Positions 49,001-52,270 of a DNA stretch of 64,000 bases are shown one piece after another. Location of the stretch: contig JAUXXH010000021.1 of the NCBI GenBank assembly GCA_030684935.1, positions 36,974 to 100,973 of the forward strand, in the 5' to 3' direction. Within the stretch, counting starts at the first letter, position 1, and each line of letters begins with the position of its first letter. Source of the DNA: Pseudolabrys sp. (GTDB taxonomy: Bacteria > Pseudomonadota > Alphaproteobacteria > Rhizobiales > Xanthobacteraceae). Below the pieces are notes generated by a model. It was given only the letters and a program-made list of their open reading frames with translations. It did no database searches and was not told the DNA's origin. Made by a program: the position numbers and the translations under genes.

Positions 49001-50923
49001 TTGACCGAGGCTTCCAGGACGCCGCTGCTCGACCGCGTGCACGTGCCGCACGACATGAAGAACCTGTCGGCGGAACAGCTACGCGCGCTGGCCGACGAAT
49101 TGCGGCACGAGACCATCGACGCGGTCGCCAAGACCGGCGGCCACCTCGGCGCCGGGCTCGGCGTGGTCGAACTGACGGTGGCGCTGCACGCCGTGTTCGA
49201 CACCCCGGCCGACCGGCTGATCTGGGACGTCGGCCACCAGAGCTATCCGCACAAGATCCTGACCGGGCGGCGCGACCGCATCCGCACGCTGCGCCAGGGC
49301 GGCGGCCTGTCCGGCTTCACCAAACGCGCCGAGAGCGAATACGACCCGTTCGGCGCCGCCCACTCCTCGACCTCGATTTCCGCCGGCCTCGGCATGGCGG
49401 TGGCGCGCGACCTCAAGGGCGACAAGAACAATGTCATCGCCGTGATCGGCGACGGCGCCATGTCGGCCGGCATGGCCTATGAGGCGATGAACAATGCCGG
49501 CGCGCGCAACGAGCGCCTGATCGTCATTCTCAACGACAACGACATGTCGATCGCGCCGCCTGTCGGCGCCATGTCGGCCTATCTGGCGCGGCTCGGCTCC
49601 GGCCGCACCTATCTCAAGCTGCGCGACGTCGGCAAGCAGCTCACCCGGCATCTGCCCAAGAGCTGGGACCGCGCCATCACCCGCGCGGTCGAGCACGCGC
49701 GCGGTTACGTCACCGGCGGCACGCTGTTCGAGGAACTCGGCTTCTATTATGTCGGCCCGATCGACGGCCACAATCTCGACCACCTGTTGCCGGTGCTGCG
49801 CAACGTGCGCGATGCCGAGATCGGGCCGATCCTGCTGCATGTCGTCACCCAGAAGGGCAAAGGCTATGCGCCGGCGGAAACCTCCGCCGACAAATATCAC
49901 GGCGTGGTCAAGTTCGACGTCGCCACCGGCACGCAGGCCAAGTCCAAAGGCGGCGCGCCGCAATACACCAAGGTGTTCGCCGATAGCCTGCTCAACGAGG
50001 CGCGCAAGGACGACAAGATCGTCGCCATCACCGCGGCAATGCCTTCCGGCACGGGGCTCGATCTGTTTCAGACCGAATTCCCCGCCCGCTGCTTCGATGT
50101 CGGCATCGCCGAACAGCATGCGGTGACGTTCGCCGGCGGCCTGGCGACCGAGGGCTACAAGCCGTTCGTCGCGATCTATTCGACCTTTTTGCAGCGCGCC
50201 TATGACCAGGTGGTGCACGACATCGCCATCCAAAGTCTGCCGGTGCGTTTCGCCATCGACCGCGCCGGTCTGGTCGGCGCCGACGGCCCGACCCATGCCG
50301 GCGCCTTCGACGTCGCCTATCTCGGCTGCCTGCCCTCTTTCGTGCTGATGGCGGCGGCCGACGAGGCCGAACTGATGCACATGGTGGCGACCCAGGTCGC
50401 CATCGACGACCGGCCGTCGGCGCTGCGCTATCCGCGCGGCGAAGGCCTCGGCGTCGCCATGCCGGCCGAAGGCGTCCCGCTCGAAATAGGCAAGGGCCGC
50501 ATCGTGCAGCAAGGCCACAAGGTGGCGCTGCTGTCTTACGGCGGCCGGCTCGGCGAATGCCTGAAGGCGGCCAGGGAACTGGGCGCGCTCGGCCTGTCGA
50601 CCACGGTGGCGGACGCACGCTTCGCCAAGCCGCTGGACGTCGACTTGCTGCTGCGGCTCGCCGCCGGGCATGAGGTGCTGGTGACCATCGAGGAAGGCAC
50701 GGTCGGCGGCTTCGGCTCCTACGTGATGCAAGCGCTGGCCGACAACGGCGTGTTCGACCGCGGCCTGAAGATACGGTCGATGGTGCTGCCCGACGCCTTC
50801 ATCGACCAGGACTCGCCGGCCGCGATGTATGCCACCGCCGGCCTCGACGCCCGCGCCATCGTCGCCAAGGTGTTCGAGGCGCTCGGCAAGGACGCCGCCG
50901 CCGAGACGGTGAAGCTGGCGTAG
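49001..50923 (+). CDS. dxs: 1-deoxy-D-xylulose-5-phosphate synthase
   Basis: [50 protein letters not shown]. Confidence 0.97.
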
Positions 50924-50930
50924 GTTTGTT

Positions 50931-51084
50931 CTTGTCCCGGACAAGCCGCGTCGCGAAACGAGGCGGCTGGAACGATCCCGGTTCTGCGGCGCAGCGCTGC
51001 GCGCTGTACCCGCCCGGGAAAAGCCGTGACCTTGTCCCGGGCGCGGTGCATCACGAAGTGATGCGCCGCAGAACCGGGACCGTT
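50931..51084. repeat. Cluster of ~52-bp REP-like palindromes upstream of the GIY-YIG gene
   Basis: Unit 50971-51022 (AACGATCCCGGTTCTGCGGCGCA...CCCGGGAAAA), inverted copy 51032-51084, degenerate partial copy 50931-50968. Confidence 0.8.
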
Positions 51085-51118
51085 ACGGAACGGACCTAAG
51101 CCAACACGGCCTTGCGCC

Positions 51119-51414
51119 ATGCCGGACCGCTTTTACATCTATATCCTGGCGAACCGCCCCAAAGGCGTCCTCTACGTGGGCGCGTCACCAATGACCTTGT
51201 CCGCCGTACCGGCGAGCACAAGGCAAAAGCCGTTGCCGGTTTCACCGCGAACTATGGCGTCAGCCGATTGGTTTATTTTGAGGAGTACGCCTCTGTCCTG
51301 GACGCGCGGGCCAGAGAGCGCTCGCTGAAGCGCTGGCATCGCGCATGGAAGATCGACCTCATCGAAACGATGAATCGCGAATGGGTCGATTTGTCAGAGC
51401 AACTGGCTTTGTAG
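51119..51414 (+). pseudogene. GIY-YIG nuclease family protein, frameshifted
   Basis: FYIYILANRPKGVLYVG in one frame continues as VTNDLVRR..EHK..RLVYFE..RE..LKRWHRAWK in another; extra GC at 51182-51183. Confidence 0.85.
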
Positions 51415-51457
51415 CAAATTGCCGTATCGGCTCCGATGTGGTTGAGGATAATGCTGC

Positions 51458-51510
51458 AACGATCCCGGGTCTGCGCCGCGTCGCTTCGCGACACGGCGCG
51501 CCCGGGAAAA
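51458..51510. repeat. REP-like palindrome downstream of the GIY-YIG gene
   Basis: AACGATCCCGGGTCTGCG...CGCGCCCGGGAAAA, same family as 50971-51022. Confidence 0.8.
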
Positions 51511-51526
51511 GTACAGGAACAATGCC

Positions 51527-52270
51527 TTGCCCCCTCCCCGCGTCCGCATCGACCGCCTGCTCGTCGAACGCGGCCTGTTCGACAGCCGCGCGCGGGCGCA
51601 GGCCGCCATCGAAGCGGGCCTCGTCAGCGCCGACGGCAAGACCGTCGGCAAGGCGTCGGAGACCGTTCTCGCCAATGCCGCGATCGTGGCCAGCCCCGCG
51701 CACCCTTATGTCTCGCGCGGCGGGCTGAAGCTTGCCGCCGCGCTCGATCATTTCGCGTTTGATCCCTTGGGCCGTGTCTGCCTCGACGTCGGCGCCTCGA
51801 CCGGCGGCTTCGCGCAGGTGCTGCTCGATCGCGGCGCCAAACGGGTGACGGCGGTCGATGTCGGCCACGGGCAACTGCATCCGTCGCTGCACGGACGGCC
51901 CGGGCTGGTGTCCCTGGAGCGCACCGACATCCGCACCCTCACGCCGGCACAACTCGGCGAACCGCCGGATCTGGTCGTCATCGATGTCAGCTTCATCTCG
52001 CTGAAGCTGGTGCTGCCGGCGACGCTCGCATTGGCGAAGGCCGGCGCGCTGCTGGTGGCGCTGATCAAGCCGCAGTTCGAGGCCGGCCGCCAGGCCGTCA
52101 AGAAAGGCGTGGTGCGCGACGCCGCCGTTCACGCCGCGGTCTGCGACGACATCTCCACGTTTGCGACGTCACTCGGCTGGCGCGTCCGCCGCGTCATCCC
52201 CTCGCCGATCGAAGGCGGCGATGGCAATGTCGAGTTTCTGCTGGGGGCGGAGCGCCCTGACGCTCGCTAG
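51527..52270 (+). CDS. tlyA: TlyA family rRNA 2'-O-methyltransferase
   Basis: S4 domain, YVSRGGLKL, LDVGASTGGF, DVSFISL, LIKPQFE. Confidence 0.95.
   Translation: MPPPRVRIDRLLVERGLFDSRARAQAAIEAGLVSADGKTVGKASETVLANAAIVASPAHPYVSRGGLKLAAALDHFAFDPLGRVCLDVGASTGGFAQVLLDRGAKRVTAVDVGHGQLHPSLHGRPGLVSLERTDIRTLTPAQLGEPPDLVVIDVSFISLKLVLPATLALAKAGALLVALIKPQFEAGRQAVKKGVVRDAAVHAAVCDDISTFATSLGWRVRRVIPSPIEGGDGNVEFLLGAERPDAR

What the first reader, a model, noticed from the sequence alone, without database searches (positions are those of the whole stretch)
50931..51510. GIY-YIG nuclease bracketed by inverted REP-like palindromes: REPtron-like element with a non-RAYT enzyme
Seen: between dxs and tlyA, a ~97-aa stand-alone GIY-YIG gene is flanked by copies of one ~52-bp palindrome family. 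The nearest copies (51032-51084, 51458-51510) are inverted relative to each other, with extra copies upstream. The units keep their ends while the inner stems vary but remain paired. Established: REP arrays flank RAYT tyrosine transposases in this manner. Inference: a parallel system in which a GIY-YIG nuclease mobilises or maintains its cognate repeats. This copy has a 2-bp GC duplication and appears dead.
Basis: partly seen in the sequence, partly recalled or inferred. Interest (0 to 1): 0.7.

Follow-up and report, generated by a model that had tools for sequence, protein, structure and literature searches.

The report
Ssn nuclease subclade with own hairpin
A broken copy of a small nuclease gene of the known Ssn family (whose tested members cut single-stranded DNA beside hairpin repeats) sits between inverted copies of a long hairpin repeat that the published Ssn search motif misses and that brackets one branch of these genes at dozens of genomic sites, so it likely marks a separate enzyme-repeat pair with its own, untested, cutting specificity.

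Summary
A 97-codon GIY-YIG gene (51119-51414, 2-bp GC duplication at 51182-51183) lies between inverted ~54-bp hairpins, with a further degenerate pair upstream. What is not in that paper's text is this variant. The repeat (TGTCCCGG, ~30-nt inner stem-loop, CCGGGACC) fails the published SRM pattern, occurs 53-58 times in this genome, and flanks 118 of 119 genes of one Ssn branch versus 0 of 144 other Ssn genes; SRMs flank 0 of 119 versus 54 of 144. The branch carries Arg where others, including Neisseria SsnA, mostly have Ile, three residues before the catalytic Glu. The cassette occupies about 45 neighbourhoods, is under purifying selection, and dxs-tlyA is filled or cleanly empty in sister genomes. 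Cutting and mobilisation are untested. Verdict: new variant of a known kind, dead here; interest 0.42.

The parts
49001..50923 (+). dxs (1-deoxy-D-xylulose-5-phosphate synthase), left neighbour; not part of the element
50931..50967 (+). partial repeat copy (5' arm and inner stem-loop, no 3' arm); left half of an extra, degenerate inverted pair
   Evidence: (D4, I2); the 100 bp holding this pair are absent in contig X4
50971..51023 (-). degenerate full-length repeat copy; right half of the extra pair
   Evidence: D3, I3; 41.8 bits to a profile built without the window's copies
51031..51084 (+). left long-stem hairpin repeat of the cassette, 5' tag facing outward
   Evidence: 58.5 bits
51119..51414 (+). 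Ssn-family GIY-YIG nuclease gene, 97 codons, frameshifted; Y8, Y19, E66 match SsnA Y6, Y17, E64 in spacing; R63 is the branch marker
51182..51183 (+). 2-bp GC duplication that breaks the frame after codon 21
51458..51511 (-). right long-stem hairpin repeat of the cassette, inverted, 5' tag facing outward
   Evidence: I1; 41.7 bits
51527..52270 (+). tlyA (S4 + FtsJ rRNA methyltransferase), right neighbour; not part of the element

Best explanation
This is a frameshifted member of a Xanthobacteraceae-centred branch of Ssn GIY-YIG nucleases, bracketed by the long hairpin that accompanies that branch, and intact members likely bind this hairpin in single-stranded DNA, cut just 5' of it, and so would help spread and maintain both the cassette and its gene-less inverted pairs. 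Shown here: family membership, the one-to-one link of branch and repeat, outward-facing 5' tags, many sites, patchy occupancy, purifying selection, the break. Taken from PMC11893778: tested Ssn proteins bind a hairpin in ssDNA, need the C after the stem for binding and the three bases before it for cutting, cut a few bases upstream, and tolerate replacing the loop by an extension. Inferred: the repeat derives from a CGTC-type unit by losing a base or two at the tag and gaining a ~30-nt inner stem-loop; the Ile-to-Arg change on the catalytic helix (i, i+3 to the catalytic Glu) helps read the altered foot of the stem; cuts at the two outward tags free the element's ends during replication, and host repair functions complete the move. 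In this genome the repeat family is now orphaned as far as the assembly shows.
For: Family: 117 of 119 branch proteins pass the paper's blastp criterion (E<1e-10, cover >=75%) using an NTS-flanked Neisseria gonorrhoeae homolog as query; Tyr/Tyr/Glu spacing 11 and 47 is the same; predicted GIY-YIG fold, pLDDT 88.9. Pairing: end motif within 250 bp of 118/119 branch genes vs 0/144 others; SRM 0/119 vs 54/144; 188/221 adjacent windows vs 2/150 windows 730-1000 bp away; in 20 genomes that hold both kinds, 0 of 28 other Ssn genes have the motif while 25 have CGTC-type hairpins; in 39 loci fetched after the motif was fixed, 3 of 3 branch genes have it and 0 of 36 others. This genome's intact Ssn has CGTC-type ends and its only Y1 transposase has GTAG-type ends. 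Orientation: outermost unit points inward from its tag in 81/92 upstream and 81/103 downstream cases; all 19 gene-less pairs are +/-, 14 with the same 25-nt spacing. Mobility: about 45 neighbourhood clusters among 92 mappable loci; dxs-tlyA gap <=10 bp in 7 of 19 same-genus loci; filled state needs 7 changes on the host tree, one clade rejected, p-AU 1.8e-7, with filled/empty sister pairs; one site is cassette in relatives and gene-less pair here. Selection: pN 0.11-0.23 vs pS 0.59-0.90 in 20 of 21 pairs. Genomes with an identified branch gene hold a median 40 copies (minimum 5, n=28) vs 2 (n=123).
Against: No cutting, binding or movement was tested. A GIY-YIG nuclease has no known strand-joining chemistry (own knowledge), so transposition needs host functions not identified here. 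Branch support is moderate (SH-aLRT 79 on 263 rows; 92/89 on a 69-row subsample), its boundary was first chosen by fit to the repeat label and the end motif was written after seeing branch flanks. 43 of 123 genomes without an identified branch gene hold 5 or more copies, and 5 of 19 high-copy genomes had no Ssn match better than 1e-10. Saturated pS at dxs-tlyA fits long residence with repeated loss as well as repeated insertion. No target-site duplication or recent identical copies of the cassette were found; none among 34 plasmid hits was over 60% identical.
Confidence: 0.62

Rival explanations
1. Cognate pair, but no longer (or never) a mobiliser: the nuclease is kept by the host as an ssDNA restriction function that trims incoming or recombining DNA at the hairpins, as shown for Neisseria SsnA; the cassette's patchy presence reflects loss by recombination, and the repeats spread by other routes.
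For: The only in-vivo effect shown for the family is lowered transformation (PMC11893778, Results). Purifying selection with saturated synonymous sites at one locus; repeats persist where no Ssn gene was found. Not exclusive with the best explanation.
Against: About 45 different neighbourhoods and clean empty sites in sister genomes with no repeat scar need whole-cassette gains at some time; repeat number tracks presence of the gene (kin not independent).
Confidence: 0.27
2. The hairpins are moved by a different enzyme in trans (an HUH/Y1 transposase of the RAYT or IS200 type) and the Ssn gene rides as cargo inside a pair.
For: RAYTs move REP pairs (PMC3733652 passages; own knowledge); the genome has one Y1_Tnp gene.
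Against: That gene is bracketed by a different, GTAG-type 42-bp inverted repeat and has no long-stem motif in its locus; cargo would not give a one-to-one match between protein branch and repeat type.
Confidence: 0.07
3. Chance: an abundant intergenic repeat, kept as an RNA stem-loop (mRNA stabiliser or terminator), happens to sit beside a small gene.
For: The repeat is abundant (39 sites here; up to 159 copies in the family) and sits just after stop codons; G-T pairs occur in the stem. An RNA role for individual copies is not excluded.
Against: 118/119 vs 0/144 and 0/28 in the same genomes; no Rfam family reaches its gathering score; no terminator-like site in the hairpins.
Confidence: 0.04

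Closest known systems
Ssn / SsnA nucleases with NTS/SRM hairpins (CDD cd10448; Chenal et al. 2025, PMC11893778)
   Same: Single-domain ~95-aa GIY-YIG protein, same catalytic spacing, 47-49% identity to a Neisseria homolog; hairpin-gene-hairpin layout with outward 5' tags; conserved C after the stem; gene-less copies through the genome; homologs with their own repeat variants.
   Different: The repeat fails the SRM search pattern (0/119): tag reads YGTGTCCCGG instead of CGTC-AT-stem, and a bulged ~30-nt inner stem-loop replaces the 4-5-nt loop (54 vs 28 nt). Arg replaces Ile at Glu-3. Confined to one family in the genomes searched. This copy is broken.
CGTC-tagged REPs (Di Nocera et al. 2013, PMC3733652)
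   Same: Hairpin with TGTC/CGTC-like 5' end and CC(A) tail, mostly in inverted pairs, in Alphaproteobacteria; said there to lack a dedicated transposase.
   Different: Those have 8-9-bp stems starting with AT and 4-5-nt loops; this unit lacks the AT and has a long inner stem. Figure 2 consensus sequences could not be seen.
REPtrons: RAYT (HUH/Y1 transposase) with GTAG REPs and REPINs
   Same: Enzyme gene bracketed by its own palindromes; dispersed gene-less inverted pairs with fixed spacing; long vertical residence with losses.
   Different: Enzyme is a hydrolytic GIY-YIG nuclease, not an HUH tyrosine transposase; no GTAG tag; this genome's RAYT has its own repeat.
Br-REP1 and Br-REP2 of Bradyrhizobium (PMC5082802)
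   Same: Intergenic palindromic repeats in the same bacterial family.
   Different: The consensus sequences printed in the text are different sequences; the flanking palindromes in its S17 figure were not seen.

Membership tests
Ssn (cd10448) | single-domain GIY-YIG protein under 150 aa | tested here: met
   97 codons; PF01541 only above cut-off; intact relatives 96-98 aa
Ssn (cd10448) | blastp to Neisseria SsnA at E<1e-10 and >=75% cover | tested here: met
   with an NTS-flanked N. gonorrhoeae homolog (L349) standing in for the N. meningitidis protein: 117/119 branch proteins pass; the window's read-through gives 43%, 79% cover, 1e-21
Ssn (cd10448) | catalytic Y6, Y17, E64 | tested here: met
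   Y8, Y19, E66 in the window, split by the frameshift; same spacing in L349; 97-100% conserved in the branch
Ssn (cd10448) | top CDD hit is cd10448 | not testable with these tools
   no CDD library; NCBIfam has no matching model above cut-off
Ssn (cd10448) | site-specific cutting of ssDNA beside the cognate hairpin | not testable with these tools
   needs purified protein
NTS/SRM repeat | matches HGTCWYN(0-2)YYVSBRHN(0-5)WNVSBRGN(0-2)RNCYNB | tested here: not met
   no match at 50900-51550; 0 of 119 branch loci
NTS/SRM repeat | oriented hairpin flanking the gene in inverted orientation, with C right after the stem | tested here: met
   (C follows the stem in 53 of 54 copies listed among the ten commonest tails)
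CGTC REP families 1-4 | 8-9-bp stem opening with AT, 4-5-nt loop | tested here: not met
   7-bp GTCCCGG foot, ~30-nt inner stem-loop (definition)
REPtron (RAYT) | HUH/Y1 tyrosine transposase | tested here: not met
   GIY-YIG by Pfam and fold; the genome's PF01797 gene lies elsewhere
REPtron (RAYT) | gene-less inverted repeat pairs dispersed in the genome | tested here: met
   19 +/- pairs among 39 sites
REPtron (RAYT) | enzyme-dependent movement of the repeats | not testable with these tools
   only presence/absence evidence

The most novel reading that the evidence does not exclude
This Ssn branch is the engine of a self-spreading hairpin element: it recognises the foot of its own long hairpin through a switched residue on the catalytic helix, cuts at the two outward tags, and moves both the gene cassette and the gene-less pairs. 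That would give an orthogonal ssDNA-cutting specificity whose loop is naturally free for programming, and the cleanest natural system for showing that a GIY-YIG nuclease, not a transposase, spreads REP-type repeats.
Probability: 0.35. Interest if true: 0.72.

Novelty: new variant of a known kind. Interest (0 to 1): 0.42.

Why it matters
Chenal et al. predicted many co-evolving Ssn-hairpin pairs but found SRMs beside only 71% of homologs; this branch explains part of the remainder and is the sharpest enzyme-branch-to-repeat match seen here, with three enzyme-repeat pairs side by side in one genome (RAYT/GTAG, Ssn/CGTC, Ssn/long-stem). It names a candidate specificity residue and supplies intact natural enzymes, a natural long-loop substrate, and filled, pair-only and empty versions of the same sites, which makes two open questions directly testable: how a 97-residue nuclease reads its hairpin, and whether Ssn proteins spread their repeats. 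The copy in this window is itself a pseudogene.

Tried and rejected
Rfam: only generic hairpin matches far below gathering scores. Promoter scan: none; one terminator-like site at chance level, outside the hairpins. NCBIfam: no model above cut-off. PDB by sequence: only UPF0213 proteins 1zg2 and 1ywl, no Ssn structure; by fold: 1zg2, Slx1, UvrC, none at E<=0.001. Sequencing runs: no RNA holder listed, so nothing on expression; all four runs laid were contigs, not raw reads. The first, stem-specific profile missed 15 of 119 branch loci whose hairpin interior differs; inspection led to the end-only motif. My broad 'CGTC-type hairpin' finder is loose (24/119 hits inside the branch) and was used only as a rough label. 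Class-wide search: 1 single match in 250 genomes of other families. Viral contigs: 2 of 18 loci belong to the branch, both with the motif. Plasmids: no branch member among 34 hits. Extended complementarity just outside the tags at dxs-tlyA (L001, L093, window) was seen by eye but not in gene-less pairs and was not pursued. Literature: GIY-YIG with 'repetitive extragenic palindromic' 0 papers; GIY-YIG with REPIN 9 irrelevant; searches gave no description of this repeat or branch; the library lacks most subscription papers and all figures. Earlier scan notes by sequence and by words for this variant: nothing.

Full report
Observation. The 603 bases between dxs (ends 50923) and tlyA (starts 51527) hold four copies of one hairpin family and a small gene. 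The gene runs 51119-51414 in two frames, 21 + 76 codons; the second part is a GIY-YIG domain. Alignment with seven syntenic relatives places two extra bases at 51182-51183. The contig of the probable source run X1 has no difference from the window, and a related strain in another study (X4) lacks those two bases, lacks the 100 bases with the two upstream copies, and has a 1-base gap of its own at 51211 (contigs only, X4 depth 5.7). The nearest copies, 51031-51084 (+) and 51458-51511 (-), are inverted with their 5' ends outward.

The repeat. One pattern finds 53 copies in the genome against 1-5 in three shuffles; a slightly looser one finds 58 copies at 39 sites, of which 19 are gene-less inverted pairs, all in the same +/- orientation as the cassette and 14 with the same 25-nt spacing. 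The unit has a fixed foot (consensus YGTGTCCCGG ... GANCCGGGAYC) and a variable inner stem-loop that stays paired (94.7% of cells, 35 two-sided changes; shuffles at most 87.4% and 20). Eighteen of 22 cores have a CGAAG or CGCAG loop; from memory, C-GNA-G loops are unusually stable in DNA. A strict pattern matches 43 of 101 genomes and 28 of 52 genera of the family, up to 159 copies, and once in 250 genomes of other families of the class. Named relatives are Pseudolabrys, Bradyrhizobium and other Xanthobacteraceae or unclassified Alphaproteobacteria.

What is known. Earlier scan notes (15 findings) pointed to Chenal et al. 2025, PMC11893778. I read its introduction, results, discussion, methods sections 17 and 18, Supplementary Data 5, the file list, four rows of Supplementary Data 4 and passages of the review file; figures were not visible, and Fig. 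2c or the supplementary figures could show long-loop variants. It shows that SsnA binds the NTS hairpin only as ssDNA, cuts a few bases upstream, needs Y6, Y17 and E64, tolerates loop replacement, lowers transformation in N. meningitidis, that homologs have their own repeat variants, and it compares NTS-ssnA-NTS to REP-associated transposases. Di Nocera 2013 (PMC3733652; passages and section 6) defines CGTC REPs and says they lack a dedicated transposase. Br-REP1/2 (PMC5082802; passages) are other sequences.

Membership. An NTS-flanked N. gonorrhoeae homolog (L349; 94 residues with Y6, Y17, I61, E64) finds 117 of 119 branch proteins at the paper's thresholds and the window's read-through at 1e-21. 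The model of L001 has the GIY-YIG fold. The protein is an Ssn. The repeat is not an SRM by the published pattern.

Branch and repeat. I gathered 273 Ssn-type loci from genomes, genus relatives and metagenomes, dropped one 42-residue fragment and nine duplicates, and built trees on 263. All loci with the long-stem profile fall on one side of a branch of 119 rows (SH-aLRT 79; 92/89 on 69 sampled rows). The end motif lies within 250 bp of 118 of 119 and 0 of 144 others; SRMs flank 0 of 119 and 54 of 144; Arg at L001 position 64 is in 99% of the branch and 0% of the rest, where Ile dominates (130 of 144). The branch boundary was first picked by fit to the repeat label, the motif was written after inspecting branch flanks, and the metagenome search used branch-specific peptides, so these counts lean my way. 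Independent checks: the Arg marker uses no repeat information; 188 of 221 adjacent windows versus 2 of 150 distant ones carry the motif, and in 20 genomes holding both kinds 0 of 28 other Ssn genes do; of 47 loci fetched later, 8 repeated earlier ones, and of the 39 new, 3 branch genes (one a fragment) have the motif and 36 others (8 of them distant GIY-YIG genes, several near-identical) do not. In this genome the intact Ssn on C6 has CGTC-type ends (91 matches of that core genome-wide), a remnant on C13 likewise, and the single Y1 transposase has GTAG-type ends. No intact branch gene was found in this 89.6%-complete assembly.

Movement. Of 19 same-genus loci with dxs next to tlyA, 7 have a gap of 10 bp or less, 1 has the cassette, 2 have a gene-less CGTC-type pair and 9 hold other genes. 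With further filled cases added, the 8 filled sites need 7 changes on a dxs+tlyA tree, one clade is rejected (p-AU 1.8e-7) and two filled genomes have cleanly empty sisters; gain versus loss is not resolved. Flanks of 92 of 119 branch loci map to this genome and form about 45 neighbourhood clusters (rough); one orthologous site here holds a gene-less pair, others are empty with 7- and 36-bp gaps. Among seven syntenic genes pN is 0.11-0.23 and pS 0.59-0.90, one near-identical pair aside, so intact copies are old and selected. In the genus, 28 genomes with an identified branch gene have a median of 40 copies, the other 123 a median of 2, and none of the 80 with fewer than 5 copies had one; but 144 lower-scoring matches were not listed, kin are not independent, 43 of the 123 have 5 or more copies, and 5 of 19 high-copy genomes gave no Ssn match better than 1e-10.

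Mechanism. Shown: identity, pairing, orientation, dispersal, selection, the break. Inferred from SsnA: binding to the hairpin foot in ssDNA and cutting just outside each tag. Inferred further: the Arg on the catalytic helix (residues 60-72 in the model) reads the altered foot, and cuts at the outward tags start excision or copying completed by host repair. The main rival is a host-kept ssDNA restriction role without present mobility. A RAYT acting in trans and chance are unlikely.

Verdict. Real, correctly described, and a member of a system published in 2025; the long-stem hairpin and its Arg-marked branch were not found in the searches listed. New variant of a known kind, interest 0.42.

Noticed in passing
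G000 C6:52389-52772: Intact 96-aa Ssn gene bracketed by a perfect inverted pair of CGTC-type hairpins that the published SRM pattern also misses; the core occurs 91 times in the genome. A truncated 5' arm of the long-stem repeat lies about 30 bp further downstream.
   Followed up: partly
G000 C13:58660-58852: Remnant of a third Ssn gene (3' part only, internal stop) fused to a truncated CGTC-type hairpin, with a full one downstream.
   Followed up: partly
L348:1350-1976 (G000 C52): The genome's single Y1/RAYT-type transposase gene lies between perfect 42-bp GTAG-type inverted repeats; that repeat core was found only twice in the genome.
   Followed up: partly
L087 and L089 (dxs-tlyA gap): The same intergenic site holds gene-less CGTC-type inverted pairs in two relatives, suggesting a hotspot for hairpin elements of different families.
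   Followed up: no
L083, L084, L086, L090-L092, L097 (dxs-tlyA gap): One host clade carries a ~300-bp insert with a short, very basic ORF on the opposite strand at this site.
   Followed up: no
L002, L141, L143, L145-L147, L150, L153, L154: A sub-branch of the nucleases has the same hairpin ends but a different interior (GAGCG-rich), a possible finer level of co-variation.
   Followed up: partly
window 51522-51529: An ATG five bases before the in-frame TTG of tlyA is out of frame; contig X4 lacks one base at 51527. The tlyA start may have shifted in this strain.
   Followed up: no
L330, L331: Two IMG/VR viral contigs carry branch genes with the cognate hairpins; may be host DNA beside prophages or a transfer route.
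   Followed up: partly
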